Shown here in pieces: positions 5,670-47,591 of a stretch of DNA of 47,591 nt. Made by a program: the position numbers and the translations under genes. A model generated the notes under the pieces. That model was not told the origin of the DNA. It ran no database searches and worked only from the letters and a program-made list of their open reading frames with translations. The stretch lies in the IMG/VR virus record IMGVR_UViG_3300045988_142058; one strand, 5' to 3'. This stretch comes from a virus (lineage: Duplodnaviria; Heunggongvirae; Uroviricota; Caudoviricetes). The first letter of the stretch is position 1. Each line of letters starts with the position of its first letter.

Positions 5670-5877
5670 TATTGCGTCTCCACGGAGGCAAATTGTTTAC
5701 TGATATTGGCATAACCGGAGCATCAGGAACTTTAAGAATAATTCCCGCAGAAAAAAGCACCGTGAAGCGGTGCTCAGTATTAGCATCAATAAGAAGATAA
5801 GACAGGTACTCATTACCATACAACTTTAACGCGATACTATCCCATGAGTCCCCTTGAACCGTTCTATAATCATCCAA
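5659..5877 (-). CDS. Tail protein X-like (LysM-like fold)
   Basis: 72 aa; YRTVQGDSWDSIALKLYG motif resembles P2 gpX/LysM; directly after tape measure. Confidence 0.45.
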   Translation of the reverse strand: MDDYRTVQGDSWDSIALKLYGNEYLSYLLIDANTEHRFTVLFSAGIILKVPDAPVMPISVNNLPPWRRNSVT

Positions 5878-22631: not shown

Positions 22632-23248
22632 ACCTCCCCAGCCAGCAATGCGGATACAAATCCGATATAGCTGCCATTATCATCAACATAACGAGACACC
22701 GCGCAGTCAAAACGATCCGCTTCCTCATCCGTTGCCGGGATTTTATGACCTCCAAATGACAGGTACTGAACTTTTACGCCTGATTTGGCCTCATCCTTCT
22801 CAAATGGGATATCCATACCCTCTGTGTCATCGTAGACCGCCGCACTCAATAAGTTATCCAGTTCGCGCTGAGTAAAACCAATTGAGTCCAGAGCAAAATC
22901 ATCGGCCGCAAGATCTGCAAGCTCCGCGCTTAACAACTCTTCATCCCAACCAGCATTCAGCGGAATACGGTTGTCGGCCAGACGATATGCCTTCTTCTGA
23001 TTCTCCGTTAGCCCAGCCAGAACAATGCAGGGAACATCATCCATCCCCAACTGAGTGGCCGCAGCAATTCGACCATGACCAGCAATTACAACGTTGTTCT
23101 CGTCTATCAGGATCGGATTAGTCCATCCGTACTCCTGTATGCTGGCAACAATCTGATCTACCTGCTCCACGGAGTGTGTGCGAGCGTTCTTTTCATAACC
23201 AATCAACACAGAAAGTGGTAAAGAAACCACATTAAGATGTTTTGTCAT
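22625..23248 (-). CDS. ParB-like nuclease domain protein
   Basis: 207 aa; same motif set as 19368..19958 (NPILIDENNVVIAGHGR, QKKAYRLADN). Confidence 0.75.
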   Translation of the reverse strand: MTKHLNVVSLPLSVLIGYEKNARTHSVEQVDQIVASIQEYGWTNPILIDENNVVIAGHGRIAAATQLGMDDVPCIVLAGLTENQKKAYRLADNRIPLNAGWDEELLSAELADLAADDFALDSIGFTQRELDNLLSAAVYDDTEGMDIPFEKDEAKSGVKVQYLSFGGHKIPATDEEADRFDCAVSRYVDDNGSYIGFVSALLAGEVC

Positions 23249-23482
23249 GCCGTTTATCCGCTAAAATCCCCTCGCTTGTGCAAGCAAGTGGGCCTCGGTT
23301 TGTATCCACGGCACCCTGTGGGTATGAATGACTGTCGTCAGGTCGCAACTGACGGCGGTCGCCCACCTTCCAGTAATAAAAAAGCCACCAGCATTAACTC
23401 CACAGCGAGCTGGAGTTAATGAGGCAGCTTTGGTTTGCGCATTATCGCAGCCCCTGATAGGCACAAGAGCTGCTGTAATGCG

Positions 23483-23903: not shown

Positions 23904-23933
23904 GAAAATAAAAGCCCCGCGACACCGCGAGGC
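23904..23933 (-). terminator. Intrinsic terminator inside cassette-1 operon (second)
   Basis: 8-bp GC stem then UUUUAUUUUC on minus RNA, just upstream of RBS of 23483..23893. Confidence 0.5.
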
Positions 23934-23941
23934 TGTAAGAG

Positions 23942-24094
23942 TTACTTTCGATAGAAATCAAGGCGCATTTGCTCCCGCTTAAGCCAAAAAGCTCTCTGCG
24001 CCACTAAGATGCGCCACAGGACACCAGCAATAACCACCAGCGAGATACAAAAACACACGGCCACAACCATCAGAAAAATGCCAAGACCATTCAT
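23942..24094 (-). CDS. Small hydrophobic membrane protein (50 aa)
   Basis: ATGA start/stop overlap with upstream gene; MNGLGIFLMVVAVCFCISLVVIAGVLW; below track size cut-off. Confidence 0.3.
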   Translation of the reverse strand: MNGLGIFLMVVAVCFCISLVVIAGVLWRILVAQRAFWLKREQMRLDFYRK

Positions 24095-24303
24095 GAAACT
24101 ATCCATTTTTCAATGAATACCTCCAGTAATATCAAGAGATACGCCGTACCCAGCGCGGTTCCTACCGATATAGCTAAGACAAACCTCAAAGATAACGAGG
24201 TATCTTTCGCTTTTCTCCAGACGTAAGCGCCAGCCAGAAATACCAACAAATCTCTTATTGGAAGCGGAAACCAGAACAAATCACTCGGCATAAGCACGAT
24301 CAT
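24091..24303 (-). CDS. Small membrane protein
   Basis: 70 aa, two hydrophobic segments. Confidence 0.4.
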   Translation of the reverse strand: MIVLMPSDLFWFPLPIRDLLVFLAGAYVWRKAKDTSLSLRFVLAISVGTALGTAYLLILLEVFIEKWIVS

Positions 24304-24580
24304 CTTCCGCTGCTGATTTACATGCCGCAGTTACTGATATATTGATAACCGGTGCGCTAATCGTGATGGACGACGCTGTCGGTTGACGCGATATAACTGA
24401 ACGATGGCTATCAATGAAGTCCACAATCTCATTCAGGCATTCTTTAGCTGCCTCATCGTGACTTTTTCCGTATGCTTCATGGAGGACTTTCATCCTCATC
24501 ATTGCTCCGTCACATATAGTCGAAAGCGCGTAAAGCACATCACTAACCGCCATTTCTTTTTTGGTGCTTGTCGAAGGCAT
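24281..24580 (-). CDS. Hypothetical protein
   Basis: 99 aa, first gene after terminator 24604..24631. Confidence 0.4.
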   Translation of the reverse strand: MPSTSTKKEMAVSDVLYALSTICDGAMMRMKVLHEAYGKSHDEAAKECLNEIVDFIDSHRSVISRQPTASSITISAPVINISVTAACKSAAEDDRAYAE

Positions 24581-24603
24581 CCCATGTTCTCCTTTGTCTG
24601 GAT

Positions 24604-24631
24604 GTAAAAAAGCCCCGGCAATTGCCGAGGC
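24604..24631 (-). terminator. Intrinsic terminator inside cassette-1 operon
   Basis: 10-bp stem (with G.U only in minus-strand RNA) followed by UUUUUUAC; in 74-nt gap after second gene. Confidence 0.55.
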
Positions 24632-24654
24632 TCGTTGTTCGTTATCGTTACGGT

Positions 24655-24855
24655 TTAATGCTCGCGTCGTCCGGCGACAACTTCGGATTTGTATTTCAGG
24701 TCGCCCAGCAAGAATTGCAGTTTAAGCATCTTTGCCGCCGTGTAGTTCCCTGATTCCACAACCTCTTTCATGAGGTCATAAACGGCCGCTACATCATCAG
24801 CCAGGAACTCTTTGCGTTGCTGCTCAGTCGCACGTTTGAAGGAAATACGCATCAC
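24655..24855 (-). CDS. Hypothetical protein
   Basis: 66 aa, coupled to upstream gene. Confidence 0.4.
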   Translation of the reverse strand: MMRISFKRATEQQRKEFLADDVAAVYDLMKEVVESGNYTAAKMLKLQFLLGDLKYKSEVVAGRREH

Positions 24856-25121
24856 TCATCATCTCCTGCCGCACATACAACCTCACAAAAAACATCAGCG
24901 GAATGTTTCTCCTTGAACGAATGACGCTCAAAACCGCACTCAATATCAGGCGCAAAAACATCCACCACATACGGTCTTTCAGAATGTTTGTTTTCCCAAC
25001 GATAAACCGTAGTGACGTTGAAATGTTTTAACGCTTCACGGAACTCAACGCTGCCCGTCAGGTTTTTTGAGGTCAGGTATTGCAGGAGGTTTTTTACTAC
25101 TTCACGGTCTTGTACTTTCAT
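24852..25121 (-). CDS. Hypothetical protein, first gene behind cassette copy 1
   Basis: 89 aa; ATG at 25121 preceded by cassette GGAG RBS. Confidence 0.45.
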   Translation of the reverse strand: MKVQDREVVKNLLQYLTSKNLTGSVEFREALKHFNVTTVYRWENKHSERPYVVDVFAPDIECGFERHSFKEKHSADVFCEVVCAAGDDE

Positions 25122-25230
25122 CGGGTTATCTCCGGTTTAACCAGGGCGGGTATCGCTCGGTTTCGGGTATAACCATAGGAAATTTTTTCCCACCTGTAAA
25201 GCACTTTTTATATAAATCTATAATTATATA
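25122..25230 (-). promoter_or_regulatory. Promoter-leader cassette copy 1
   Basis: ~109 bp near-identical to copies at 32043..32150 and 40979..41087; putative -35 TTTACA (25195..25200), -10 TATGGT (25172..25177), leader with GGAG RBS. Confidence 0.6.
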
Positions 25231-25233
25231 ATT

Positions 25234-25821
25234 CTATGACACTTGCCAGAGAGCATCATGCAACTGGATACCTCCATTGCACTGGTTGCCCCAGCCATGC
25301 CAGCCATCAGGTAAATCACCGCGAGCAAACAGCTCAATACGAGGAACATCGCCTAACAGCTTTACCAGCTTGTCACGGACCACATCAGGCTTCCGAGAAT
25401 GCTCCAGACGAGGCGATGTAAACGACTGAATGATTCCCGCATCAAGACGTGTCGGTAGTTTGCCTTTCACTGCAAACAAGCAATCTTCACTGTTTGCACG
25501 AGTCATATGCCCCATCCCCATCACCAGCTTATCTGGTTGTCGGCTACCACATTTGTTCCATGTGAAGCCCTTCATGGTCATCAGCCTGAATCCCCATGCT
25601 TTCACCACCAGCAACGCTTCTTCTGGCTGAGTCGGAACCCACCACATGGCCAACAAACACGATTCAGGATTAGCAAGCTGCCAGACAGGAATACGAGCAA
25701 TATCCTCAGCTTTCATCGTTGGATACTTAAAACCAGCGCCACGATTCCCATCCTTACACTTGTCTTTGTATTCCCAGGGGGGATCTGCATAAATCAGATT
25801 AAACAATGCAATTGCCTCCAT
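25234..25821 (-). CDS. MT-A70 family N6-adenine DNA methyltransferase
   Basis: 195 aa; DPPW motif (LIYADPPWEY). Confidence 0.8.
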   Translation of the reverse strand: MEAIALFNLIYADPPWEYKDKCKDGNRGAGFKYPTMKAEDIARIPVWQLANPESCLLAMWWVPTQPEEALLVVKAWGFRLMTMKGFTWNKCGSRQPDKLVMGMGHMTRANSEDCLFAVKGKLPTRLDAGIIQSFTSPRLEHSRKPDVVRDKLVKLLGDVPRIELFARGDLPDGWHGWGNQCNGGIQLHDALWQVS

Positions 25822-26129
25822 GTTAGTTGTGTCTCCGGCGCTTATCTCCGGCAGTCATAACGCTGGCCAGCTCTACAGCAAACACAACGAAAAGGGCACT
25901 AACCAGACTGATTAATGCCCTTGCCTGTTGTGTGCCGGATATCGCCCGACAACGCTGTTTTGGTAACACGGCTACAGTTCCGTGCCGCTCCAGCTTTTAC
26001 CCCTTTGCGGATAACAGGCCCTGCCTGTAACTTAGCCCCACGTTCGCCCGAAATGCGCACCAGGCACGCATAAAGATGAGCACGAAGGAAGTAACTCCAC
26101 CGCGCTTATCTTTATGTGTGAGAGTGAAT

Positions 26130-26205
26130 TGGTGGCCCCTACCGGATTTGAACCGATGACCGTGCGATTATGAGTCGCCTGCTCTAACCACTGAGCTAAG
26201 GGGCC
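26130..26205 (-). tRNA. tRNA with CAU anticodon, tRNA-Ile2 (lysidine)-like, CCA encoded
   Basis: 76 nt cloverleaf GGCCCCUUAGCUCAGUGGUUAGAGCAGGCGACUCAUAAUCGC...GGUUCAAAUCCGGUAGGGGCCACCA; 7-bp acceptor stem; resembles E. coli ileX from memory; elongator Met not excluded. Confidence 0.8.
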
Positions 26206-26374
26206 ATATTTGATCTGTTTGTCTGGTGTGGCGCCGCGCACGAAAATCCCAGCCAATAAATTCAGGATTTTTGGGCGCGGCGGCATATCAGACAAACATG
26301 GTTGATGCGTGCGCTAATGAGAAAAGCGCATAGAATGTTGTAACTATATATTTATATAATTATAGAAATATATA

Positions 26375-26584
26375 TTACTTTGGACAGTTGATTTCCCATG
26401 CCCTGTTATGAGCCAGAATATCTTTCTTTGTCTGGCGGTCCATAACATCGATATCGTGATCAGTCAGGTAGATGGGCTTTACCCAATCACAGGCGGTATC
26501 AACCACCACCGGGACGCTTCCACGACTCCCGCAGCTCGCGATCAACATCGTCATCAGCCATATGGTTAACACTCTGCTGTACAT
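26375..26584 (-). CDS. Outer-membrane spanin Rz1-like lipoprotein
   Basis: 69 aa; lipobox-like LIASC; overlaps 3' end of Rz-like gene in another frame. Confidence 0.55.
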   Translation of the reverse strand: MYSRVLTIWLMTMLIASCGSRGSVPVVVDTACDWVKPIYLTDHDIDVMDRQTKKDILAHNRAWEINCPK

Positions 26585-26777
26585 TGCCCACCTCTTTTGT
26601 CACTTCTATACGCCGCTCCGCAGTGGCTTTTACGGCGGCTGCATTCTCATTAATGCGCTGCTTTTCAGCTTCATCTTCGGCCTTTTCTCGCCCCTTCATA
26701 CGACCAAAACCAAACGCGCCGAATGCAACCAATATAATTGTGCCAATAAATGACAAAACGGCCTTCAAACCAGTCAT
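26499..26777 (-). CDS. Inner-membrane spanin Rz-like
   Basis: 92 aa; N-terminal TM, charged coiled-coil; follows endolysin. Confidence 0.6.
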   Translation of the reverse strand: MTGLKAVLSFIGTIILVAFGAFGFGRMKGREKAEDEAEKQRINENAAAVKATAERRIEVTKEVGNVQQSVNHMADDDVDRELRESWKRPGGG

Positions 26778-27316
26778 ACCACCACTCGCTCTTTCATCCA
26801 GCCGTAGACAAACGACTCATTCGCCTCGCGCTTCTCCGCCAACTCCAGATAGCGTTCGCCCTGCGTACAGTTCAGCGACGTCAGCATCACCCGTTCGCCG
26901 TCTTTTCCCCGATTCCCAAGATAAGCACGCAGCGCATTAATGGTACGTGGACCGATTCGTCCGTCTGCATCCAAATCGGGATACAGCTTCCCGCGCAGGT
27001 TGAACACATTCAGCCAGCGTTGAAGCATTTTTGACGCCACTGTTGGCCCCATGTTCACCCCCGTGTCACACAGCTCTGCAGCAATATCAGAGGATAATGC
27101 GGCCACCTGATCAAAGCGTGGTCCGTACCAGTAATCAGCCTCAAGGATTTCCAGTGCCTGTTCGCGAGTTAAATCGCGCATATCGCCACGGTATCCATGA
27201 GCACGGGCAGTGTTCTGAGTAATGCCCCACTTTGTTGGGCCTCCCTTGTCGTCAGGGTGATCAACATAACCGCCCTCTTTCCCAAGAATGCTGTTAAAAA
27301 TCTCATCTTTGGTCAT
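26774..27316 (-). CDS. Endolysin, GH108-like with peptidoglycan-binding domain
   Basis: 180 aa; ILGKEGGYVDHPDDKGGPTKWGIT motif; C-terminal DGRIGPRTINAL. Confidence 0.8.
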   Translation of the reverse strand: MTKDEIFNSILGKEGGYVDHPDDKGGPTKWGITQNTARAHGYRGDMRDLTREQALEILEADYWYGPRFDQVAALSSDIAAELCDTGVNMGPTVASKMLQRWLNVFNLRGKLYPDLDADGRIGPRTINALRAYLGNRGKDGERVMLTSLNCTQGERYLELAEKREANESFVYGWMKERVVV

Positions 27317-27635
27317 GATTAAACCCTAATGCGTCAACTATCCGCGCCAGATTGCCCCTGAAATACAGAACAACGATGCAGATAATCAGATTTCCAATAA
27401 CCACCAGCCAGTGGGATTCTTGATAAAGACCGAACACATAACGGAAGGGAACATTGGCGTATACAATGACGTAGATATAAGCCAGAAAGGAAACAAATGG
27501 ACGATGCCTGGAGTCTTTCCGTCGATAAAGCATCAGCGCCATTACTATTACTGTGCAAAGCACCGCATTAATCAGTGCTGACGGGTCACTGCTTACCATT
27601 TGAACCCCCTCCACGTAAGCGGGAAAGCATTCCAA
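27303..27635 (-). CDS. Membrane protein, holin/antiholin-like
   Basis: 110 aa, multiple hydrophobic segments; start uncertain. Confidence 0.4.
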   Translation of the reverse strand: MECFPAYVEGVQMVSSDPSALINAVLCTVIVMALMLYRRKDSRHRPFVSFLAYIYVIVYANVPFRYVFGLYQESHWLVVIGNLIICIVVLYFRGNLARIVDALGFNHDQR

Positions 27636-27981
27636 AGATGCTACCGAGATCCTGGCTGTTTACGAACGTGAGGATTTTAATGGTCAATGCAGCCACAATA
27701 ACCGCACCAAGCGCATCCAGAGGACGATCGTTGTAGCTGGTCCATTTGGCAAGAAATGAGCCAACTAACGGCGCTCCAATCACTCCAACAATGAACGATG
27801 TAAAGAAATAGCCAATCAGCTTGAGACGGCTAATATTCACCGCTGTAGCAACATAGAAAACAGCGCCAGCAAATGCCCCGAATACAACGCCGTAATCAAT
27901 ACCAGTTGCAATACCAAAAACGCTGGCACCCATCAGGCCACCAGCAGCAACGGCCGTACCGGAAATTGGTTCTGCTGACAT
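27586..27981 (-). CDS. Putative holin
   Basis: 131 aa, 3-4 predicted TM segments, upstream of endolysin. Confidence 0.55.
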   Translation of the reverse strand: MSAEPISGTAVAAGGLMGASVFGIATGIDYGVVFGAFAGAVFYVATAVNISRLKLIGYFFTSFIVGVIGAPLVGSFLAKWTSYNDRPLDALGAVIVAALTIKILTFVNSQDLGSIFGMLSRLRGGGSNGKQ

Positions 27982-28171
27982 TGAAATCCTCGTTAAAAAA
28001 AAAGCCCCGCCGAAAAAGGCAGGGCTTCATAAAGCAACAAATTACGCGGTAATCGCTTAACGCAGTTTTACTACGTTAAATGAAACACTACACCCAGTTA
28101 CCACCTAAAACAAGGTTTCCCCATAAAAAAACCTTCATATCGTGGTTAATCGATCAATAAAAAAGCAATGT

Positions 28172-28363
28172 TCAACTTTTTACCAACTGAACATCCCGAC
28201 CAGGACTTCCATAATATTCGCCGATATTCCACTGCTTAAGTTGAGTAATCTTCTCCAACTTAACTCCCACAGAATCCAATTTCTGCCATGTTTTCGGTTG
28301 TATGTGCCTCATTACCCGCTCTGAATATCTAAATACTGCTCGTAGCCTCGCTAAATTGCTCAC
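28172..28363 (-). CDS. Hypothetical small protein
   Basis: 63 aa ORF. Confidence 0.3.
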   Translation of the reverse strand: MSNLARLRAVFRYSERVMRHIQPKTWQKLDSVGVKLEKITQLKQWNIGEYYGSPGRDVQLVKS

Positions 28364-29064
28364 TTGTCGCCTCCTTTACGAATCTGTTCCGCCCACTCCT
28401 CAAGAGATTTCTCCGCATATTCACCGGACAGGCCATCAATCGGGTGCGGTTCATTAGCCAACTCTTCTTTCGCTGACAAAATCATGCGTGTAACGTCGAA
28501 AACTTCACGCAAAGACTTATTGATAAATCCGTGATTGAACGCAGCAGCAAGACGGCTTGCGGTGTAGTTAATCCCCTCGTTGCGTGCCTCCGCACGTATT
28601 TCAGCCAGGAAAGCGTCGGTGGCTGACATATTTCCTGTTGCCTTCATGGCCTTCAAAATAACCAGAACGCCATCTCGCCCAACCAACTCGGAGATAATCT
28701 CAGTGTTGTCGCCAACAACATCACAGAATGCCTGAACAGCTTTACGAGCAAGTGCATTCTCCGCCGCCAGCGCCGCACGACAGGCCTCCAGTTCAGCAAT
28801 ACGCTTGTTTTGGGCTTCCCGCTCATCCAGTAGTGCCTGTACTACTTCAGGGTTGAAAGCTGCGATATAACGAGCGTTGTTCTCTGCGTTTTCCTGTCCA
28901 TCAAAGCCGGTCCATTTGATAACGTCTTCACATCGTTTATCACCGGGTGTATGCACCGCATATGTACCAGTACCCGACGAAATAAATGCGACCCATTCGC
29001 CTTGTGTTGCCTGTTTTGCTATCTCACGCAGCGCCTGATAATTAATTGCTGTGCTGTTAGTCAT
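28360..29064 (-). CDS. Hypothetical protein
   Basis: Start moved to ATG 29064 (MTNSTAINYQ...), 8-nt overlap with upstream gene; 234 aa. Confidence 0.4.
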   Translation of the reverse strand: MTNSTAINYQALREIAKQATQGEWVAFISSGTGTYAVHTPGDKRCEDVIKWTGFDGQENAENNARYIAAFNPEVVQALLDEREAQNKRIAELEACRAALAAENALARKAVQAFCDVVGDNTEIISELVGRDGVLVILKAMKATGNMSATDAFLAEIRAEARNEGINYTASRLAAAFNHGFINKSLREVFDVTRMILSAKEELANEPHPIDGLSGEYAEKSLEEWAEQIRKGGDK

Positions 29065-29398
29065 TCCAAGACTCCAGCTCTGTTTCAATTTCTTTATCGA
29101 TCTCATCGTTTGTGGCTTCTTCATCCAGATGGTCACGAGCCTCTTTACGATACTTTTCTCTATGCGCTTCATACCAGTTAGAAAACTCCGGCGACCAGCC
29201 TGTGTCCTTGCCGTCGTAGTCAAACTTGGCATTTTTCTCAGCCATGCTTTCAACCATGTTTTCAGCCGTAATAAGCCCCAATTCACGCATCCCACGCAAA
29301 AAACTCTTACGCATGTGAGGACTAACTTTCGAATCACAAATAGGCTTAAATTTGACTTCCCAACGGCGAATACAACGTGCATTAAGTGATTTGTTCAT
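29057..29398 (-). CDS. Hypothetical protein
   Basis: 113 aa ORF. Confidence 0.4.
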   Translation of the reverse strand: MNKSLNARCIRRWEVKFKPICDSKVSPHMRKSFLRGMRELGLITAENMVESMAEKNAKFDYDGKDTGWSPEFSNWYEAHREKYRKEARDHLDEEATNDEIDKEIETELESWND

Positions 29399-29400
29399 AG

Positions 29401-29997
29401 TTATGCTTCCTGAATACGCTTAAACTCAATTACCCATACCCACGGGTTAGATAGCCAGTTCTCTTGCCCGTAAATACCGCGCCAGATATCACCAAAGCCA
29501 ACGCGATAAACCGCTTCCGGCGGTGTAATCTTGTACGTCGCCGGAGATGCACCTTCCGCTTTAGCATCTGCCTCGCTCATGTCATGTAGCCGTTCCACAC
29601 GCACATCGGTTATTTCCAACAGAATACGGCTGGCCCAACGTGGCATGTGAATTGATGGGGTCCAACCCTCAGCTGGCTTGCTACTATCTGAGTAATCAGC
29701 CTTGTAATCACACAGTTCAGAAGCCAGAGAGACACCATCTTTGATTTCCTGAATGACATCGTTATCCAGCCAAAAAGCGTTGAATGTTTCACGTACCCAT
29801 ATGCGATCACCAACGTTACCGAACGGACATAAACCATGTTTCGGTGCATCCATAACATGGGTACAGACACCATTGCGTTTCTTTGTCGGTTTACTGATAA
29901 CCAGGCAGTTATCCGCCCCGACATTTTTTACAGGTCGGCGAGTCTGCGTTTTCCTTCCTTCGAGGATGGCCCGGACCATCTCATCGTTAAAAATCAT
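29401..29997 (-). CDS. ASCH-domain-like protein
   Basis: Start at MIFNDEMVRAILEGRKTQTRR; motif resembles ASCH fold. Confidence 0.4.
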   Translation of the reverse strand: MIFNDEMVRAILEGRKTQTRRPVKNVGADNCLVISKPTKKRNGVCTHVMDAPKHGLCPFGNVGDRIWVRETFNAFWLDNDVIQEIKDGVSLASELCDYKADYSDSSKPAEGWTPSIHMPRWASRILLEITDVRVERLHDMSEADAKAEGASPATYKITPPEAVYRVGFGDIWRGIYGQENWLSNPWVWVIEFKRIQEA

Positions 29998-30008
29998 GCC
30001 GCGCTCTT

Positions 30009-30257
30009 TCACTCTCCCTCCCACGTTTTCAGACTTTCACCACAAAACGGGCAAAATGAGACTCGAATAGGTGATTTAGAAAACTCACCGGAACGCAACA
30101 TCACCAAATCAGGTCCACGGGTTAAACTCTCATTCCAGATTTTGTATAGCAGTAAGCCTTTTCTTACTGAGCATTCAGCATCGTGCTCAAGAGACTTTGC
30201 CAATGCAGCACACGGCTCTATTCGATTGCCATTAATTCGACAATTTGATCCACTCAC
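30009..30257 (-). CDS. Small Cys-rich (zinc-ribbon-like) protein
   Basis: GTG start overlapping upstream stop (GTGA) with GGAGG RBS; Cys pairs NCRINGNRIEPC and CPFCG. Confidence 0.4.
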   Translation of the reverse strand: MSGSNCRINGNRIEPCAALAKSLEHDAECSVRKGLLLYKIWNESLTRGPDLVMLRSGEFSKSPIRVSFCPFCGESLKTWEGE

Positions 30258-30619
30258 TTCAACTCCTCCCGACGACGTTCCTGAAGCTCTAGCATTGCGG
30301 CTCGGAAATCCTGCCACCATTCCTCATCTGCAACGGGGGTGTTTCGCTCCAGCACCTTGTCCGCATCAGCGATCAGGTTTGCCAGACTCTTGTCTGAAAT
30401 CTTCGTTACCAAAGTCGTTGGTTGCTCAACCTGCCCGATAGGTTTTATCGTGCTCAAAAGGAGGCGACGGCGGGAAAGTGGTGCGCCACAACGACGGCCA
30501 TCTTCCTTGCGATATGTTTCTTTCGGACCAACACACCAGGTTGTCGGCGTTTCGCGTAACTTCACTTTTTTCTCACCATCAATGGTGATGATTATTCCGG
30601 TATGGGTTTTGATGCTCAT
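30254..30619 (-). CDS. Hypothetical protein
   Basis: 121 aa ORF. Confidence 0.4.
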   Translation of the reverse strand: MSIKTHTGIIITIDGEKKVKLRETPTTWCVGPKETYRKEDGRRCGAPLSRRRLLLSTIKPIGQVEQPTTLVTKISDKSLANLIADADKVLERNTPVADEEWWQDFRAAMLELQERRREELK

Positions 30620-30897
30620 GCCACAGCCCCTCTCAACGGCTTAACTTTGGCTAATAAGGTGTTAAACAACATGGAGTTAGGATTCATGCCAAATGGCAAT
30701 TCCGGTTTAGCGGAGTAGTACAGGCAACCATTTATTTTCCTGGTTGTTATCTGTCCTTCGGCAACCATGCTTCTCAGTCTGCAACGCATAGAGTTCTGCG
30801 ACACACCAATGTGCTCCGCGATTACGTCCACTTTTGAACATGGGTGATCGGTCAGGAAATTAATCACATCTTGGGGGTTAATAATTTTGCGTTTCAT
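30616..30897 (-). CDS. Putative winged-helix DNA-binding protein
   Basis: Second ATG (MKRKIINPQ) has AAGGA RBS; HTH-like VDVIAEHIGVSQNSMRCRLRSMVAEGQI. Confidence 0.4.
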   Translation of the reverse strand: MKRKIINPQDVINFLTDHPCSKVDVIAEHIGVSQNSMRCRLRSMVAEGQITTRKINGCLYYSAKPELPFGMNPNSMLFNTLLAKVKPLRGAVA

Positions 30898-30943
30898 TGT
30901 CGAGGCGTCCTTATACATTTATATAAATATATAATTCTATATA

Positions 30944-30963
30944 CGGCGGGAGACATCCCGCCG
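30944..30963 (-). terminator. Terminator-like hairpin after first gene of cassette-2 operon
   Basis: 8-bp stem CGGCGGGA/TCCCGCCG 12 nt after stop at 30975, followed by AU-rich tract. Confidence 0.4.
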
Positions 30964-30974
30964 TAGGCTTACTG

Positions 30975-32042
30975 TCAGGCTTTCAATAGCGATTCTTTCA
31001 GATATCGGGCATCAGCCAGGGCATTTGGAGTAATCTTGCGAACCCATGCATTACGGGTTGGACTCCACTTAAAGGCGCGTGATTTAAGCAGCGAACGAAT
31101 GTTTGCCTCTGGTTTGCCAGGGAAATAAAACAGGATGCGGTTATCCTCTGGATCTATCTCCATAGAAAAGTCGTCGTATTCTTCGCGCTGTGCTCCTGTT
31201 ACAGACTTGACCGATTCAAGCTCCTTAATACGGCTCTGTAGTCGTTTGATCTCGGCGTTATTGTTGCTCAGTGCGTATGAAGGGAATCCGATGCGCCCAC
31301 AGAAATCTCCGGCCAGTAACTCTTTGGCTTCGCTTTCTGTAAACCTGAGATCGATTAATGCAGAAAGCTGCTGTAATTGGTCTTTTTTGTATTTGCGAAT
31401 GGCCTTATTTGCGGCCTTCATTTTGACGTGTGACTTCATGCAGCCTTGCAGCTTACGAAGCAACTTAAATAGCGCATCAGGATCATCAGACGAAATTCCA
31501 TTACGACCAACACCTGCGGCTTTGCTCTCGTAGTGTGATGCTTTACTTTCGCATTCAACAAACGCTTTTCTGAATAACGCATCAGCTTTAGACAAACGGC
31601 GGCGATGGCCTTTCGCGCTATAATGGTCAACTAAAATCGGCTGGCCTAACGGGATCACATCCAACAGGTCATGCGCTCGCTTATGCGCTACCGCACCTTC
31701 TTTTCTGGCTTTTTCTGCACGAGCAATATATCGGGCAAGACGCGCGTTCTGGCGTTCCTGATAGGTGTTTACGTAATCATCTCCGCGCTGCTGCTGTTCA
31801 AGCCATGCTTTACGCAGATCTTCTGTTACGTCCACCAGCTCCGCAGGGATACAACCAGTTTGGGCTTCATAAGAGTAACCATCCTCATAGATACGCCCAT
31901 CGTCTTCAACAAAGAAAAAGGTTTCGTGCTCATCGCTTTTGACCATACGACCATTAACATGGCGTAATAGGTAGCCAGTATCAGTGCTTAACAGGCTGTT
32001 AGGGTTGTTGATCCAGTCAGAAATAATTACTTGTTTATTCAT
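30975..32042 (-). CDS. DUF3560-like protein, first gene behind cassette copy 2
   Basis: 355 aa; start at cassette RBS; family call from memory only. Confidence 0.4.
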   Translation of the reverse strand: MNKQVIISDWINNPNSLLSTDTGYLLRHVNGRMVKSDEHETFFFVEDDGRIYEDGYSYEAQTGCIPAELVDVTEDLRKAWLEQQQRGDDYVNTYQERQNARLARYIARAEKARKEGAVAHKRAHDLLDVIPLGQPILVDHYSAKGHRRRLSKADALFRKAFVECESKASHYESKAAGVGRNGISSDDPDALFKLLRKLQGCMKSHVKMKAANKAIRKYKKDQLQQLSALIDLRFTESEAKELLAGDFCGRIGFPSYALSNNNAEIKRLQSRIKELESVKSVTGAQREEYDDFSMEIDPEDNRILFYFPGKPEANIRSLLKSRAFKWSPTRNAWVRKITPNALADARYLKESLLKA

Positions 32043-32150
32043 CAGATTTCTCCGGTTTAACCAGGGCGGGTATCGCTCGGTTTCGGGTATAACCTTAGGA
32101 AATTTTTTCCCACCTGTAAAGCACTTTTTATATAAATCTATAATTATATA
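32043..32150 (-). promoter_or_regulatory. Promoter-leader cassette copy 2
   Basis: Differs from copy 1 at -10 (TAAGGT) and in ~8 nt next to ATG; lies between Q-like gene and lysis-containing operon. Confidence 0.6.
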
Positions 32151-32211
32151 TTTATAGATTTTCGATGTTCCCGATGTCTACACACCATCAAAACAGCTCA
32201 AAATGACACTT

Positions 32212-32589
32212 TCACTCTCTTCGCTTTTTCAAATAGTCGACAACATACGCCCTGGCTTTTGCCAGCTTCCGGCGATACTGTCTGAGACTAAGAGAAAGGG
32301 CGTGGGCTTTATCAATATGCGGTGCATTTATGTCGAGGCCCCGAATCTCCCACGCCCCGTATTCAATTCGGACAACCAGCGCCGCAGTCTCATCAACTAC
32401 CGTGAGGGCCGTCACCGCTCCCTCGATACTGGTTTCCAGTGAGTCATTTGGTGCGCCGCCCCCTCCGGTAAACTGGCAACGCGTAACCATCATCATTTCT
32501 AACATCGACGCGAAACCGCTACGGGCGTTGCAGCCATTGCGCACCCACAGCGCCCATAGCTCAAACAAGCTATCCAGATCGCGTCTCAC
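32212..32589 (-). CDS. Putative late-gene antiterminator Q-like protein
   Basis: 125 aa; last gene of Cro-side operon, immediately upstream of cassette 2 and lysis operon; N-terminal LFELWALWVRNG resembles small Q family. Confidence 0.4.
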   Translation of the reverse strand: MRRDLDSLFELWALWVRNGCNARSGFASMLEMMMVTRCQFTGGGGAPNDSLETSIEGAVTALTVVDETAALVVRIEYGAWEIRGLDINAPHIDKAHALSLSLRQYRRKLAKARAYVVDYLKKRRE

Positions 32590-34562: not shown

Positions 34563-34581
34563 TTAACGAACTCCAGTTAAA

Positions 34582-35864: not shown

Positions 35865-35884
35865 AAGCGGGCTAACGCCCGCTT
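35865..35884 (+). terminator. Hairpin terminator after gene 35486..35860
   Basis: 8-bp stem AAGCGGGC/GCCCGCTT, loop TAAC, then AU-rich sequence. Confidence 0.4.
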
Positions 35885-36010
35885 ATATGATTATAGTTTT
35901 ATATAATTATATAAAACGCTTTTCATCCGCCAAAAAGTTGGTTATGCTTACCTCGTTCTATAAATATAGATTTATAGAATTATATAACCAAACACATGGA
36001 GTCTCGACAA

Positions 36011-36664: not shown

Positions 36665-36707
36665 TATATAATTATAGTTTTATAGATTTATATAAGAGGG
36701 TATACAC

Positions 36708-36956
36708 ATGGCCGCACCATCAAAACCACCAAAGAAGAACAGCAAAGGCGTACCGCCATCGATCGAACAACCGCAGGTTTTCGACCCGACTGAAACGCCA
36801 ACCAGAACCAAATCAGGTGGGGCACAAATGGCGTTTAACGTCGACCCTGAATTTAAACGTGAGTACAAAACATTCGCCAGCTCAATGGATATGTCATTGA
36901 AAGAAGTGCTGACAAAATCTTTTGAGTTACTCAAGGCTCAATACAACCAGAAGTAA
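36708..36956 (+). CDS. ParG/ParB-like small partition DNA-binding protein
   Basis: 82 aa after parA; basic N-tail, RHH-like C-terminus. Confidence 0.5.
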   Translation: MAAPSKPPKKNSKGVPPSIEQPQVFDPTETPTRTKSGGAQMAFNVDPEFKREYKTFASSMDMSLKEVLTKSFELLKAQYNQK

Positions 36957-40597: not shown

Positions 40598-40978
40598 TTA
40601 CTTAACGAGGAATAAAAATGGTTTATTGTTCGGCGGTGTAATCGGGGCTGGCTCGCTTTTGCTCATGCGATCAGTGTACCAAGCCAACTCCTTGTCAAAG
40701 TAAGCCTGATTAAAATAGGCCATGAATGTAGTTTCAAATCCATAACGACCGCTAATACGCAGCATCTGATTGCCGTTCTCTGTTTCCAGATATACCTGGG
40801 CACGTTCCTGATTCTCCTTCAGCCAGGTTAAAGCCTCATCGCATGAGGACACACGATACTCATCATCGTAGCCGTCATCGATGCGGCTTGAGGAAGAACG
40901 GCAAATCACGCCAACAGAACCAGCCAGGATAGTTTGAATTTTAAGGAAAGCGTTTTTGCGGATTTTAATCATGCTCAT
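40598..40978 (-). CDS. Hypothetical protein, first gene behind cassette copy 3
   Basis: 126 aa; ATG at 40978 preceded by cassette RBS. Confidence 0.45.
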   Translation of the reverse strand: MSMIKIRKNAFLKIQTILAGSVGVICRSSSSRIDDGYDDEYRVSSCDEALTWLKENQERAQVYLETENGNQMLRISGRYGFETTFMAYFNQAYFDKELAWYTDRMSKSEPAPITPPNNKPFLFLVK

Positions 40979-41087
40979 CGGGTTATCTCCGGTTTAACCA
41001 GGGCGGGTATCGCTCGGTTTCGGGTATAACCTTAGGAAATTTTTTCCCACCTGTAAAGCACTTTTTATATAAATCTATAATTATATA
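40979..41087 (-). promoter_or_regulatory. Promoter-leader cassette copy 3
   Basis: One substitution relative to copy 1; heads operon 40598..40978 plus HTH gene. Confidence 0.6.
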
Positions 41088-41245
41088 AATAATAGTAACT
41101 GGTGTTTTTTTAGGCGAAGCATTAAACATTTTTGTTTAGCTTATTGGCAAGGTCTTGAAAAAGACATTTCAGCAATGCTATACCATTGAACATGGTATCG
41201 GCTGAATTTTGTAATTAACACATTTTAAACAATTTGAGGTGCCAA

Positions 41246-44861: not shown

Positions 44862-45389
44862 TTATTCTGGTTTGTCTGGCCATTCGGGGTTTGCTGTGTC
44901 CACGCGGCTGACAAGAACACTGTAGCGTTCCCATGCTTCCAGTCGTGTGCGTTCCTCGTCTGTTGCCATATTCAGCCTGACAGCGCGTTCCAGCGGCTGG
45001 ATGACTGATTCAGCTTCGGAAAGCAATGCGGCCTTTTGTGATTCGGCTTGTTGTTGCTGTTCGTCTGCCGTATAAATCCGTTTAACTACAGCTCCATCCT
45101 TAAACATCCACTTTCCTGAATCATCAGCGCGGCGGTTGGCTGTAATATCAGGAACCTCAACGACGCTAAAACCTTCAGGGTTAAGCGTGGAGGCATCTTT
45201 AGTGATGGCGACAATAATATTATTTGCATCGTAAACAATCTTTATTGTGTCTGGCTGAAAGTTTTTCACTTCCTCATACCAGTTTTTTCCGTCCTCAGAG
45301 TAAAGCCAGATAACTCCGTGTTTCTTTGTTAACTCATACTGTTCCAGTGTTTTAGCGTTACCCGCTTTTATGTTCTTTAAGTGCATCAT
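44862..45389 (-). CDS. Tail fibre assembly protein (Tfa-like)
   Basis: 175 aa after second fibre gene; C-terminal ...[13 protein letters not shown]. Confidence 0.6.
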
Positions 45390-45390
45390 A

Positions 45391-46380
45391 TTAAACGCTC
45401 GCTACATTATACCAGGTGCCATTTATATACTTTTGAACGGGTCTGTAATAAACGCCCGCTATATTATCGGCAGAGTTGGAACCTGTATCCTGAACATTAA
45501 TACCAGACAATACATGACCTGACGGGCACTGGAAATTCCATGTTTGCCAGTTGTTTACTCCATAATATTGCTGTGAACCAAGTCGAACATCTTTCACATA
45601 ACGGGAATCAAAGTTACCGTAATCCGAGGGGTTAACACGCCCTGTAATATTTATGGTTTTATTACTTTGAATGCTGCCGGAGACAAAGCGCATAACATGG
45701 ACGTTATTAGCATAAACGTCCAGATTACCGTCGCCATTTTGTTTAAAGCCCGTGTCATTATCACCCAAAACAATCGAGTTACCGCCAAGAGCACTGGATG
45801 TTCCGATACCCAGTGCACCATTCAATTGACCACCAGATAACGACAGTGCACCGACATCTCCCGCTGTAGGTTTTCGCGTTGTGGTATAAAACTCAGACCA
45901 GTCAGCCTCGAATCCGTAACCGTCACGAGCAGAACGATAAAAAATACCGCCGTTATTATAATTAACGCGGAACTGGGCGGCGGGACAACTTCCTTCACCG
46001 ATATTAAAATGAAGAATTAACGTTGATGCCCCACCAATAGTTGCGTTATAGGCTCCGCTACTCCAGTTCCATCCAACGGCTTTATCATTCGCAACGGTAT
46101 CTCCTGTTTTTCCTGAAGCAAATGCACCAATATTTTTCGGCGTCAGGTTAATATCTGATGTTCCATCAAACGAAACGGAATTAATCTTTCTCGCGGTTTT
46201 CAGCTTTGTAGCCGTTGAGGCATTGCCGGACAGCTCACCAGAAATGCCACCAACAACTGTTAGATCACCAGTTATTGTGCCGCCTGAACTTTCCAGTTTT
46301 TTAGCAACATCACTCTTAATAGAGTCGATTTCTTTTTTCAGATTAGTTATATCTGCTGGTATCGTTGTCACTGTTGCCAT
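45391..46380 (-). CDS. Second tail fibre protein
   Basis: 329 aa; [27 protein letters not shown] shared with first fibre; Gly/Asn-rich distal region. Confidence 0.65.
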
Positions 46381-46389
46381 ATTAATTCC

Positions 46390-46668
46390 TTACGCCCATT
46401 CCCGCAGCGGTTGTTCTAATTTAACTTCAAAACCATCAAACATTTGTTGTTTCAAACTGTCGTTTAAAATACGAACATTAACAAAGAAGCCATCATTTTT
46501 AATCACTGTTGGTTCTTCGTTCTCGCCGTTTGGTATTTCGGTATATGTAATACCTACAACATCAAGAAGGATGTTGTTTTGCAGTTCTTCATTATCGTGC
46601 CAGGATATACTCTCTAAAAAAGAGTCGTATTCTTCCCTGTCTCTGAATTTCAACGTAATATCTTTCAT
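46390..46668 (-). CDS. Hypothetical protein (possible chaperone for first fibre)
   Basis: 92 aa directly after first fibre stop. Confidence 0.35.
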   Translation of the reverse strand: MKDITLKFRDREEYDSFLESISWHDNEELQNNILLDVVGITYTEIPNGENEEPTVIKNDGFFVNVRILNDSLKQQMFDGFEVKLEQPLREWA

Positions 46669-47591
46669 TAAATAACCTCAGCCATTTGTTGGTCTGTTAA
46701 TGCTTTATGCCATATTCTGAAATTCCTGATATGACCAAATAGATGACGTGCCCCTGATGTGGTTTGACCTCCTATTCTAATAAAGGTCCGCGTTTTTACG
46801 CCCGTCCATTCCGTTTCAATGGTTTTAGTAGCCTCACCGTTAGAAACTACTCGTTTAGTACCGTCAGAATAAATATTAAAACCACCAATGAATTTTCGAA
46901 CATCCGTTCGACCAGTAAACAAACTAGAAACGTAACTACTTGTCGACGCTTTATAAGTTTGCATATAAAGCTGACCGTAATATCTCTCGGTTGTGTTAAA
47001 AGCGTATGTGATTGACTCAATAGGCGGCACACCAGAAAAATCAAAAATACGCGGTGCTACATTAGGGGGAATATCGCCCCAATTCCTGTTAACCTCGACC
47101 AAACAAGTAAGCGGTCTGTTATAAATGTTGTTTTCGGTCGGGATCGTAACCATATCACTCGCACGAGTCGCCGCCGTCGTTCCTGATATAATAAAAGATG
47201 ATACACAAGGCCCATTTTCTACTTGTGGGGTGGCCAGATAAATATAGTCACCAGATACGGTTGCCCCGCCCTGCTTAGGAGAATACTGTATCTGAGAACC
47301 TATTTTTAACTCCCCATCAATTGCCTGAATTGTTGCCTCAGCAAAAATCCATCCTGTAGTTTCATCCTTCCTGACTCGTGCCGTAATTCTACCGGAAGCA
47401 CCACCTGTCATATTAATTTCAAGCGTTTGTGTATCAATATACGCATCACCAAGAAAAGTTGTTGCGCTACCGTCATACTTATCAAACCGTATACGTAACC
47501 TTACCTGTCGTTCTGTTTTAAAACGGCATGAGGTTGTCACGTACTTGTTATCGCCTGAGACATCAACTGACTTTGTTGCAGCAATTGATGC
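46668..47591 (-). CDS. Tail fibre protein, C-terminal portion (same gene as 1..1517)
   Basis: Same reading frame as 1..1517 across the 62-bp junction; complete gene ~2379 nt (~792 aa). Confidence 0.7.
   Translation of the reverse strand, partial: ASIAATKSVDVSGDNKYVTTSCRFKTERQVRLRIRFDKYDGSATTFLGDAYIDTQTLEINMTGGASGRITARVRKDETTGWIFAEATIQAIDGELKIGSQIQYSPKQGGATVSGDYIYLATPQVENGPCVSSFIISGTTAATRASDMVTIPTENNIYNRPLTCLVEVNRNWGDIPPNVAPRIFDFSGVPPIESITYAFNTTERYYGQLYMQTYKASTSSYVSSLFTGRTDVRKFIGGFNIYSDGTKRVVSNGEATKTIETEWTGVKTRTFIRIGGQTTSGARHLFGHIRNFRIWHKALTDQQMAEVI
47530..47591. repeat. 62-bp terminal redundancy identical to 1..62 (circular closure)
   Basis: Exact identity of the two window ends. Confidence 0.95.

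What the first reader, a model, noticed from the sequence alone, without database searches (positions are those of the whole stretch)
23904..32589. Intrinsic terminators just inside the cassette-driven operons fit antitermination control
Operon 1 has strand-specific terminators at 24604..24631 and 23904..23933; operon 2 has a hairpin at 30944..30963 after its first gene. A promoter followed shortly by terminators, with a Q-like gene (32212..32589) at the end of the Cro-side operon, is the lambdoid late-gene logic, here apparently applied to three promoters.
Basis: inference. Interest (0 to 1): 0.6.

Follow-up and report, generated by a model that had tools for sequence, protein, structure and literature searches.

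The report
Q-type antitermination in a phage-plasmid
A common 48-kb E. coli phage-plasmid carries real transcription terminators between its promoters and its lysis and particle genes, plus an unannotated distant relative of the phage 21 Q antiterminator, so it probably uses the classic lambdoid late switch; this is sound but not a new kind of mechanism.

Summary
Two canonical, minus-strand-only intrinsic terminators lie at 24633..24610 and 23934..23913. A stable hairpin lies at 30963..30944 but has no U tract. Strong terminators on the coding strand are far above chance (8 against 0.37 in shuffles). Three more were not listed, including the strongest (28028..28001), directly before the holin.

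Terminators keep their positions in diverged relatives. I conclude that lambdoid-type processive antitermination is likely (about 0.55), with no experimental support.

Not supported:
- "Three promoters": only two share the module.
- The hairpin as a terminator.
- Any identifiable loading site (Q-binding element or sigma-dependent pause element).

The AT-rich 8-bp-repeat cassettes also flank a ParA/ParG-like partition locus, and which protein binds them is unresolved.

The parts
32212..32589 (-). Q-like gene: 125 aa, GTG start, last gene of the early (anti-cI side) operon. Remote member of the Q21/QuuD (PF06530) antiterminator superfamily.
32049..32160 (-). P2 module directly downstream of the Q-like gene. 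It holds the 8-bp-repeat cassette (32160..32126), -35 TTTACA (32120..32115), a 17-nt spacer containing GGAAA-N3-TTTCC, -10 TAAGGT (32097..32092), and a ~50-nt leader to the ATG at 32042. This is the candidate pR'-like loading promoter.
   Evidence: Sequence. It is one copy of the 108-nt direct repeat D2. The same module follows the Q-like region in relatives L001 and L002.
25129..25250 (-). P1 module, the second copy (97% identical) of the 108-nt promoter/leader. It holds the cassette (25250..25209), -35 TTTACA (25200..25195) and -10 TATGGT (25177..25172). It precedes two small genes, then T1.
   Evidence: In L002 the two copies are identical to each other but differ from the window's copies, which indicates concerted evolution.
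24604..24633 (-). T1: intrinsic terminator after the second gene of operon 1 (24655..24855).
   Evidence: A terminator of different sequence sits at the same place in L002 (46187-46206). An identical one is present in Yersinia phage L001.
23904..23934 (-). T2: intrinsic terminator after three small variable genes and before the 136-aa gene.
   Evidence: The positional equivalent in L002 is 341-359. It is absent from Yersinia phage L001, where this segment is replaced.
30944..30963 (-). Stable hairpin after the DUF3560 gene, abutting the next cassette. It has no U tract and is not a canonical terminator.
   Evidence: The stem is conserved and the loop varies in L001 and L002.
28001..28028 (-). 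Strongest terminator (11-bp stem, U9), at the end of a 190-nt intergenic region and 20 nt before the holin gene. It is in the tR'-like position ahead of the lysis cassette (27981..26375).
   Evidence: Lysis gene annotation. Same position in L002 (42434-42460, different sequence) and in L001.
25892..25922 (-). Terminator-like hairpin downstream of tRNA-Met and upstream of the MT-A70 methyltransferase gene and P1.
5755..5775 (-). Intrinsic terminator inside the tail gene array, after the tape-measure gene.
30904..30953 (-). 8-bp-repeat AT-rich cassette directly upstream of the ribosome-binding site of the wHTH (MarR-like) gene 30616..30918.
26337..26386 (-). Cassette between the end of the lysis genes and the long hairpin plus tRNA-Met.
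35884..36006 (+). parA promoter region: cassette (35884-35917), -35 TTTTCA (35920-35925), -10 TATGCT (35943-35948), second cassette (35957-35990). It has the same architecture as P1/P2 but a different sequence.
   Evidence: ParA assignment from Pfam CbiA/MipZ hits.
36665..36956 (+). Cassette (36665-36706) followed by an 82-aa ParG-like gene (36708-36956). From its sequence pattern it looks like a ribbon-helix-helix centromere-binding protein.
   Evidence: The RHH assignment is inferred from the sequence pattern only; there is no Pfam hit.
41066..41088 (-). Eighth cassette, upstream of the 126-aa gene 40598..40978.
   Evidence: The equivalent site in L002 is at 30365-30388.

Best explanation
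The window is a circularly permuted ~47.6-kb temperate myovirus that is maintained as an IncFII-RepA/ParA plasmid (a phage-plasmid). Nearly all phage genes form one co-directional minus-strand array. In order: the early operon (34562 to 32212), accessory genes, the lysis genes (27981..26375), tRNA-Met and a methyltransferase gene, small genes, ParB-like genes, then packaging, head and tail genes.

The last early gene (32212..32589) encodes a divergent Q21-type antiterminator. After the CI-like repressor is inactivated, this protein accumulates. It then loads onto host RNA polymerase that initiates at the promoter module immediately downstream of its own gene (P2). It probably also loads at P1, the near-identical copy 7 kb further on.

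The modified polymerase would then ignore, in order: the hairpin at 30963, the strong terminator at 28028 before the holin, the terminator at 25922, T1 (24633), T2 (23934) and the terminator at 5775. That would deliver lysis and virion gene expression. Without the protein, transcripts from P2, P1 and the early promoter stop at these terminators. Only the one or two promoter-proximal genes would be expressed, and the lysis and structural genes would stay silent in the plasmid state.

Shown here: the terminators, their strand specificity and positional conservation, the remote homology and fold, the synteny, and the duplicated promoter module. Inferred: that the protein antiterminates, that P2 and P1 are its loading sites, and that late genes depend on read-through.
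For: Terminators. They are real, one-directional and far above chance. They keep their positions with different sequences in the Salmonella relative L002: before lysis at 42434-42460, the T1 equivalent at 46187-46206, the T2 equivalent at 341-359.

Protein homology. The family profile (110 diverse members) hits only Q21 structures in the PDB with significance (E 3.6e-5, Q21 residues 12-95). Profile-profile comparison with the QuuD/PF06530 family gives 82% probability and E 1e-5 over 111 co-linear columns, nearly the full length of both. Ten of 110 members touch PF06530 directly.

Synteny. The gene follows Ref-like nuclease and DUF1064 resolvase-like genes, as Q follows rusA in DLP12. It is followed within 52 nt by the P2 module.

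Promoter module. P2 is duplicated as P1. The two copies evolve in concert, as expected if both must be recognised by the same factor.

Other promoters. The scan found no other sigma-70-like promoter on the minus strand between P1 and 20000.

Distant relatives. Integrative prophages L007 and L008 carry ~35%-identical homologues. They also have strong same-strand terminators between that gene and terS.
Against: The protein itself has no Pfam hit, so the homology is remote. The hhalign match is 82% against the QuuD family alignment but only 22% against a single QuuD sequence.

I found no conserved -10-like pause element in the P1/P2 leader.

The only tandem 8-bp direct repeats (the cassette) lie at about -38 to -70, upstream of the -35. 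In my reading of the Q21 loading-complex geometry (Qu in the sigma R4 position), a Q21-type QBE would lie between the -35 and the pause site, so the cassette is in the wrong place.

P1 to T1 is ~540 nt and P2 to the first canonical terminator is ~4 kb, with genes in between, unlike lambda pR'-tR'.

The hairpin after the first gene of operon 2 has no U tract. T2 is missing in the Yersinia phage relative.

A 556-nt AT-rich non-coding stretch (19959-20515) upstream of the packaging genes could hold an independent late promoter.

There are no transcript or biochemical data.
Confidence: 0.55

Rival explanations
1. The 125-aa protein is a sigma-region-4-like late-gene activator, not an antiterminator. 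It binds the 8-bp direct repeats of the cassettes just upstream of weak -35/-10 promoters and recruits RNA polymerase. The terminators are ordinary operon or moron punctuation that leaks enough, or late genes have their own activated promoters.
Against: The N-terminal 90 residues align to Q21 and QuuD, not to sigma factors or known activators. The most conserved segment is the counterpart of the Q21 torus, which has no role in simple activation. Five cassettes have no -35/-10 pair downstream. There is no room for a promoter between T1 and the next gene (30 nt), so genes beyond T1 need read-through.
Confidence: 0.17
2. The protein is a Q-type antiterminator but loads elsewhere. The candidate is an unrecognised promoter in the 190-nt intergenic region just upstream of the terminator at 28028, giving a canonical pR'-leader-tR'-lysis arrangement. 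P1, P2 and the cassettes would then belong to a separate circuit run by the ParG-like partition protein: operators or centromere sites that keep these promoters low in the plasmid state. T1 and T2 would be read through only by polymerases modified upstream.
For: The 190-nt non-coding leader ending in the strongest terminator, right before the holin, is the textbook position. It contains a half-copy of the CI-type operator (ACCACGATATG). In L007 an operator-like repeat also lies ~120 nt upstream of the late terminator (I1/I15). Three cassettes flank parA and the ParG-like gene, as type Ib centromere/operator arrays do. The ParG-like beta-strand changes together with the cassette sequence in relatives. 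Integrative relatives with a Q-like gene but no parA seen within 12 kb show no cassettes.
Against: The scan found no sigma-70-like promoter in 28171-28030. In relative L005 a cassette, not an operator, precedes the holin terminator by 16 nt. The first intergenic gap after the Q-like gene holds a cassette in all five relatives examined. The Q-like recognition helix also changes together with the cassette.
Confidence: 0.18
3. The terminators are only a fail-safe insulation of a plasmid-borne prophage. They would stop leaky transcription from maintenance promoters. They would be overcome during lytic growth by sheer promoter strength or by a different, unidentified factor, and the 125-aa protein would have an unrelated DNA-binding role.
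For: There is no direct evidence for any antiterminator activity. Several hypothetical early proteins remain unassigned.
Against: Five strong terminators in series would leave very little read-through without an active mechanism. The only early protein with detectable homology to any transcription elongation factor is this one. Rfam found no known RNA-based antiterminator element.
Confidence: 0.1

Closest known systems
Phage 21 Q / E. coli DLP12 QuuD (Q21 family, Pfam PF06530)
   Same: Small protein of about 125-160 aa. Co-linear remote homology over nearly the whole length. Sigma-R4-like fold, with 2H27 as a top structural neighbour, as reported for Q21. A conserved flexible segment lies where the Q21 torus forms. 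The gene is at the end of the early operon, after recombination/nuclease genes, and is followed by a promoter and then by terminators ahead of the lysis genes.
   Different: Below the Pfam threshold. The modelled HTH lacks the Q21 helix-turn-[loop]-helix insertion, as far as the model shows. No QBE/SDPE pair was identified. The putative target promoter is present in two copies 7 kb apart. Genes of 0.5-4 kb lie between promoter and terminators. The host element is a plasmid-prophage myovirus, not an integrated lambdoid siphovirus.
Lambda Q (PF03589) and phage 82 Q (PF06323)
   Same: The same regulatory logic: a Q gene, then pR', then terminator(s), then lysis and late genes. These are described as three unrelated families with an equivalent function (PMC9388147).
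   Different: No sequence or fold relationship. Neither family appeared in the Pfam scans of the protein or of its 110 relatives.
N15 linear phage-plasmid: dispersed SopB centromere sites near a Q-dependent late promoter (Ravin, Rech and Lane, J Bacteriol 2008; recalled from my own knowledge, not retrieved here; one search found nothing)
   Same: A plasmid-prophage whose partition-protein binding sites are dispersed over the genome, some next to phage promoters, together with a Q-type antiterminator for late genes.
   Different: N15 uses a type Ia SopAB system with inverted-repeat sites. Here there is a type Ib ParA with a small ParG-like protein, and the arrays are of 8-bp direct repeats. The link between partition protein and late promoter is only a hypothesis here.
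TP228 ParF/ParG/parH and pB171 par2 (type Ib partition with repeat arrays that serve as centromere and operator; from my own knowledge)
   Same: A small ParA (222 aa), a small downstream DNA-binding protein with an RHH-like C-terminus, and arrays of short repeats with about 8-bp period upstream and downstream of parA.
   Different: The arrays are also found at five sites far from the par locus, in front of phage genes and late-type promoters.
Caulobacter GTA GafY/GafZ two-tier control (PMC11150451)
   Same: A phage-like cluster with internal terminators, expressed through a promoter-bound activator plus an antiterminator.
   Different: Different proteins. The GafZ system is proposed to work with NusA, NusG and NusE, and no homology was tested here.

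Membership tests
Q21-type antiterminator (Pfam PF06530) | The protein scores above the Pfam PF06530 gathering threshold. | tested here: not met
   No Pfam family at E <= 0.01 for the window protein. Only 10 of 110 family members give weak PF06530 hits, best E 1e-4.
Q21-type antiterminator (Pfam PF06530) | Detectable homology to Q21/QuuD by profile methods, co-linear over the protein. | tested here: met
   hmmsearch of profile A2 against the PDB hits only Q21 (6jnx_P, 6p18_P) with significance, E 3.6e-5. hhalign of A2 against the QuuD family A4 gives 82% probability, E 1e-5, columns 8-131 against 2-112.
Q21-type antiterminator (Pfam PF06530) | A sigma-region-4-like helical body, with an N-terminal helix and a mobile linker that forms the RNA-exit-channel torus. 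| tested here: inconclusive
Q21-type antiterminator (Pfam PF06530) | The gene is immediately followed by a promoter, then terminator(s), then late (lysis) genes. | tested here: met
   P2 starts 52 nt after the stop codon. The terminator at 28028..28001 lies directly before the holin. However, about 4 kb of accessory genes lie in between.
Q21-type antiterminator (Pfam PF06530) | A QBE of two tandem 8-bp direct-repeat subsites next to a sigma-dependent pause element in the early transcribed region. | tested here: inconclusive
   Tandem 8-bp direct repeats exist (TTATAKAW x3-4), but they lie upstream of the -35. No conserved -10-like element was found in the leader.
Q21-type antiterminator (Pfam PF06530) | Makes RNA polymerase resistant to terminators. 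| not testable with these tools
   This needs in vitro transcription or Term-seq with and without the gene.
Lambda Q (PF03589) / phage 82 Q (PF06323) | Sequence membership. | tested here: not met
   Neither family appears for the protein or for any of its 110 relatives.
Rho-independent (intrinsic) terminator | A G+C-rich stem-loop immediately followed by a U-rich tract on the transcribed strand. | tested here: met
   Met for 24633..24610, 23934..23913, 28028..28001 and 5775..5755, and weaker for 25922..25892. Not met for the hairpin 30963..30944, which has 3 U in 8.
Type Ib plasmid partition locus (ParA + small centromere-binding protein + repeat arrays), considered for the cassettes | A Walker-type small ParA followed by a small DNA-binding protein, with short-repeat arrays flanking the genes. 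| tested here: inconclusive
   ParA is supported by Pfam CbiA/MipZ/ParA hits. The arrays lie upstream, downstream and between the genes. The 82-aa protein has no Pfam hit, and its RHH character is read from sequence only. Which protein binds the arrays was not resolved.

The most novel reading that the evidence does not exclude
The 8-bp-repeat AT-rich cassettes would be one shared regulatory site class that ties plasmid partition to the Q-type late switch. They occur at eight conserved genome positions. Three flank parA and the ParG-like gene, and two are built into the duplicated late-type promoter module next to the Q-like gene. Two versions are possible. In the first, the sigma-R4-like Q homologue uses multi-copy arrays of 8-bp direct repeats as loading sites at many places, including sites a few nucleotides from terminators in relatives. 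In the second, the ParG-like centromere-binding protein gates the promoters from which the antiterminator loads, so that plasmid state and lytic commitment are read out at the same DNA element.
Probability: 0.25. Interest if true: 0.7.

Novelty: new member of a known kind. Interest (0 to 1): 0.42.

Why it matters
It gives a functional assignment to an unannotated protein family: PHROG 5285, "hypothetical protein" in the source names and records seen here, with about 130 clusters at 50% identity. It also gives a testable transcription map for a phage-plasmid carried by many E. coli isolates, including the reference strain ATCC 25922. It extends the Q21 structural family to sequences that Pfam does not capture. 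If the duplicated promoter module and the cassettes shared with the partition locus are functionally linked to antitermination, this would be a compact example of how a plasmid-prophage couples maintenance and lytic gene expression. As it stands, the core mechanism is the textbook lambdoid one.

Tried and rejected
(1) Direct annotation of the Q-like ORF gave nothing useful. Pfam found nothing and PHROG returned 'unknown function'. The first homologue search returned only close, unannotated relatives. A profile of those relatives hit nothing relevant in the PDB.

(2) I tried to decide which protein binds the cassettes by covariation across four genomes with three cassette variants. Both the ParG-like beta-strand and the Q-like recognition helix change in step with the cassette, so the test does not discriminate.

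(3) I looked for a natural experiment with one protein present and the other absent. ParG-like homologues occur only in this phage-plasmid family. Two integrative prophages with distant Q-like genes have no cassettes. This is weak negative evidence only, because a one- or two-copy QBE would not show up as a repeat.

(4) I searched by eye for a sigma-dependent pause element in the P1/P2 leaders of the window, L001, L002 and L005. No -10-like hexamer is conserved.

(5) I looked for a promoter in the 190-nt region before the holin terminator. None was found by the scan or by eye.

(6) Rfam found no RNA-based antitermination element. It returned only tRNA, ryfA, IsrK and C4.

(7) Literature searches for this phage-plasmid, for the Yersinia phages and for the N15 Sop/late-gene paper found nothing usable.

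(8) I considered a sigma-factor reading of the protein and rejected it. There is no region-2-like part, and the N-terminus aligns to Q21 instead.

Full report
**What the window is.** PHROG and Pfam scans of the ORFs show a complete, circularly permuted temperate myovirus genome that is also a plasmid.
- Nearly all genes run on the minus strand, from a divergent control region at 34562-34737.
- In order these are: an early operon, accessory genes, a lysis cassette (27981..26375), tRNA-Met, an MT-A70 methyltransferase gene, small genes, ParB-nuclease-like genes, TerS/TerL, and head and tail genes. The array wraps round to the tail fibres at 47540..44862.
- On the plus strand lie a CI-like S24 repressor gene (34737-35393), a type Ib ParA gene (35996-36664), an 82-aa ParG-like gene (36708-36956) and an Ant/Rha gene.
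- An IncFII-type RepA gene lies at 43675-44685.
- Close relatives (96-99% identical) are ~48-kb non-mobilizable plasmids of about 70 records, mostly E. coli, including one in ATCC 25922.
- Yersinia phages vB_YpM_39/41/44 are about 95% identical over half of the region.
- More diverged relatives used here are a Salmonella Weltevreden plasmid (L002) and two metagenomic contigs (L003 and L005).

**The observation.**
- T1 is a 10-bp stem with 7 G-C pairs at 24633..24610, followed by U6 (-18.8 kcal/mol, z -5.0).
- T2 is a 9-bp stem with 7 G-C pairs at 23934..23913, followed by UUUAUUUU (-16.6 kcal/mol, z -4.0).
- Both work only on the minus strand.
- The hairpin at 30963..30944 is stable (-19.0 kcal/mol) but is followed by UAUAGAAU, so it is not a canonical terminator.

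A stricter scan of my own found 8 strong sites on the minus strand, against 0.37 +/- 0.61 in 100 dinucleotide shuffles. Five of them interrupt the co-directional gene array: 28028..28001, 25922..25892, T1, T2 and 5775..5755. The first is the strongest in the window (11-bp stem, U9) and sits 20 nt before the holin start, at the end of a 190-nt non-coding leader. The finding did not mention it.

**Conservation of the terminators.** In L002 the terminators are found at the same places but with unrelated stems: before the lysis genes (42434-42460), after the second small gene behind the promoter module (46187-46206), and before the 136-aa-gene homologue (341-359). Position kept while sequence is replaced argues for function. 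T2 is missing in the Yersinia phage, where that segment is replaced. The hairpin after the DUF3560 gene keeps its stem, and only its loop varies, in L001 and L002.

**The Q-like gene.** The 125-aa product has no Pfam hit, and its PHROG (5285) has unknown function. A word-indexed search found only close relatives, none of which had a functional name. An exhaustive HMMER search with their alignment found 130 representative proteins of 110-165 aa. The evidence from these is as follows.
- A profile of 110 of them (A2) hits only phage 21 Q in the PDB with significance (6jnx_P and 6p18_P, E 3.6e-5, Q21 residues 12-95).
- Ten of the 110 touch PF06530 directly.
- Profile-profile comparison with an alignment of QuuD relatives gives 82% probability and E 1e-5 over 111 co-linear columns, nearly the full length of both proteins and including the C-terminal HTH.
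- In the present family the aligned segment (residues 25-47) is the most conserved part and the least confidently modelled part. That is what one would expect of such a segment.

The gene is last in the early operon, after Ref-like nuclease and DUF1064 resolvase-like genes. This parallels rusA followed by quuD in DLP12. I therefore accept 'Q-like' as a remote homology, not as membership of PF06530 in the Pfam sense.

**Promoters and cassettes.**
- Fifty-two nucleotides after the stop codon of the Q-like gene begins a module. It consists of three to four 8-bp direct repeats (TTATAKAW), then AAAAAGTGC, then TTTACA, a 17-nt spacer, and TAAGGT, then a ~50-nt leader.
- A 108-nt stretch of this module recurs at 25129-25236, 97% identical and with TATGGT as the -10. 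That copy sits ahead of two small genes and T1.
- In L002 the two copies are identical to each other but differ from the window's at several positions. This concerted evolution suggests both are read by the same factor.
- A third module with the same architecture but a different sequence is the parA promoter.
- The repeat pattern occurs 25 times in the window against 0.11 expected, in eight cassettes. The eight cassettes occupy the same relative places in L002.
- Five cassettes have no -35/-10 pair and lie directly before ribosome-binding sites, or before a hairpin and the tRNA gene.
- So the operons are not driven by the cassette as such, and the 'three promoters' of the finding reduce to two that share a module.

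**Who binds the cassettes?** This is not resolved.
- Q21 binds two tandem 8-bp direct-repeat subsites, which makes the Q-like protein a candidate.
- However, the cassettes lie upstream of the -35. In my reading of the Q21 loading-complex geometry, a Q21-type QBE would lie between the -35 and the pause site.
- Three cassettes flank parA and the ParG-like gene, as type Ib centromere/operator arrays do.
- Relatives carry different cassettes: L005 has KATATMWW and L003 has TTAAATAT/TTATTTAT. Both the ParG-like beta-strand and the Q-like recognition helix change with them, so covariation does not decide.
- In L005 and L003, cassettes sit 5-60 nt upstream of intrinsic terminators, one of them directly before the holin.
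- Integrative prophages with ~35%-identical Q-like genes have no cassettes and no parA within 12 kb. They do keep strong same-strand terminators between that gene and terS.

**Most likely mechanism.** The early operon produces a Q21-type antiterminator. It loads on RNA polymerase starting at P2, directly downstream of its gene, and probably also at the duplicate P1. The modified polymerase then reads through the hairpin, the lysis terminator, T(25922), T1, T2 and T(5775). This expresses the lysis and virion genes. In the plasmid state, transcripts stop at these sites. I put this at about 0.55.

**Main rivals.**
- The protein is only a sigma-R4-like activator of cassette promoters (0.17).
- The protein is an antiterminator but loads at an unrecognised promoter in the 190-nt leader before the lysis terminator, while P1, P2 and the cassettes belong to the partition protein's circuit (0.18).
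- The terminators are simple insulation with no dedicated factor (0.10).

**Weak points of the preferred model.**
- The homology is remote.
- No sigma-dependent pause element was found.
- Genes lie between the promoters and the terminators.
- A 556-nt AT-rich gap before the packaging genes could hold an independent late promoter.
- There are no transcript data at all.

**Comparison with known systems and novelty.** The logic is that of lambdoid Q control. Q proteins are described as three unrelated families with an equivalent function (PMC9388147). This protein is a divergent offshoot of the Q21 family, in a phage-plasmid myovirus. The closest parallel for a link between partition sites and Q-dependent late expression is N15, which I cite from memory because I could not retrieve the paper. 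I rate the finding a new member of a known kind. It is a useful annotation and a testable map, of moderate interest. The open question with real novelty is whether the cassettes shared by the partition locus and the duplicated late-type promoters couple the two systems.

Noticed in passing
window 37179-37475 (-), 37847-37920 (+), 37945-38033 (+): Rfam gathering-level matches to ryfA, IsrK and the C4 antisense RNA lie just upstream of the Ant/Rha gene (38271-39452). This is a P1/P7 immI-type antirepressor control module inside this phage-plasmid.
   Followed up: no
window 34582-34596, 34685-34699, 35436-35450, 44691-44705 (and 37773-37787 with one mismatch): Palindromes ACCAC-N5-GTGGT occur 7 times against 0.79 expected. 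They are probably the CI-type operators. One copy lies a few nucleotides upstream of the IncFII-type repA ORF (43675-44685), which suggests the phage repressor may also act on plasmid replication.
   Followed up: no
window 25209-25250, 26337-26386, 30904-30953, 32126-32160, 35884-35925, 35957-36006, 36665-36706, 41066-41088: Eight AT-rich cassettes of three to four 8-bp direct repeats (TTATAKAW) give 25 pattern hits against 0.11 expected. They sit at the same relative positions in a diverged Salmonella plasmid. Two more distant relatives have different repeat sequences at comparable sites (e.g. around parA). The binding protein is unknown; the candidates are the ParG-like and the Q-like proteins.
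   Followed up: partly
window 25129-25236 and 32049-32156: A 108-nt direct repeat (97% identical) covers part of the cassette, the -35, the -10 and the leader of two operons. The two copies are identical within the Salmonella relative but differ from the window's copies, which indicates concerted evolution.
   Followed up: yes
window 25178-25194 and 32098-32114 (promoter spacers), 35930-35941; L005 ~39-51: The 17-nt spacers of the cassette-plus-promoter modules contain a short inverted repeat that changes in a compensatory way: GGAAA-N3-TTTCC in the window and L002, GGACT-N3-AGTCC in L005, and CCAA-N4-TTGG at the parA promoter. This could be a dimer-binding site within the promoter.
   Followed up: no
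window 19959-20515: A 556-nt AT-rich non-coding stretch lies immediately upstream of the ParB-like, TerS and TerL genes. It could be the cos/pac region, an independent late promoter, or both.
   Followed up: no
window 26216-26298 (-): A very stable long hairpin (34-nt arms, -40.3 kcal/mol, z -5.5) lies between a cassette and tRNA-Met (26130-26205). It is possibly a processing or stability element for the tRNA transcript.
   Followed up: no
window ~23377-23421 (-): A further hairpin followed, after a 9-nt gap, by a T7 run lies after the 136-aa gene and before the ParB-like gene. The matching place in the Salmonella relative was flagged as terminator-like (L002 723-742).
   Followed up: partly
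window 30900-30918, 35996-36014; L005 6370-6388, 2995-3010: The translation-start context (G)AG.C(T/C)TCGACAA(A)TG recurs in front of several cassette-associated genes in the window and in relatives. This suggests that whole cassette-RBS units have been copied around the genome.
   Followed up: no
window 22625-23248, 21252-22631, 19368-19958 (-): Three ParB/Srx-N-terminal-domain proteins lie between operon 1 and the terminase genes. One is fused to a 459-aa protein annotated as a methyltransferase in relatives. They are unrelated to the ParA/ParG-like partition locus.
   Followed up: no
L007 4128-4164, 9435-9471, 9589-9616: In an integrative prophage with a distant Q-like gene, a copy of the immunity-region operator-like repeat lies about 120 nt upstream of a strong late terminator. 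This resembles a pR'-leader-tR' unit placed away from the Q-like gene.
   Followed up: no
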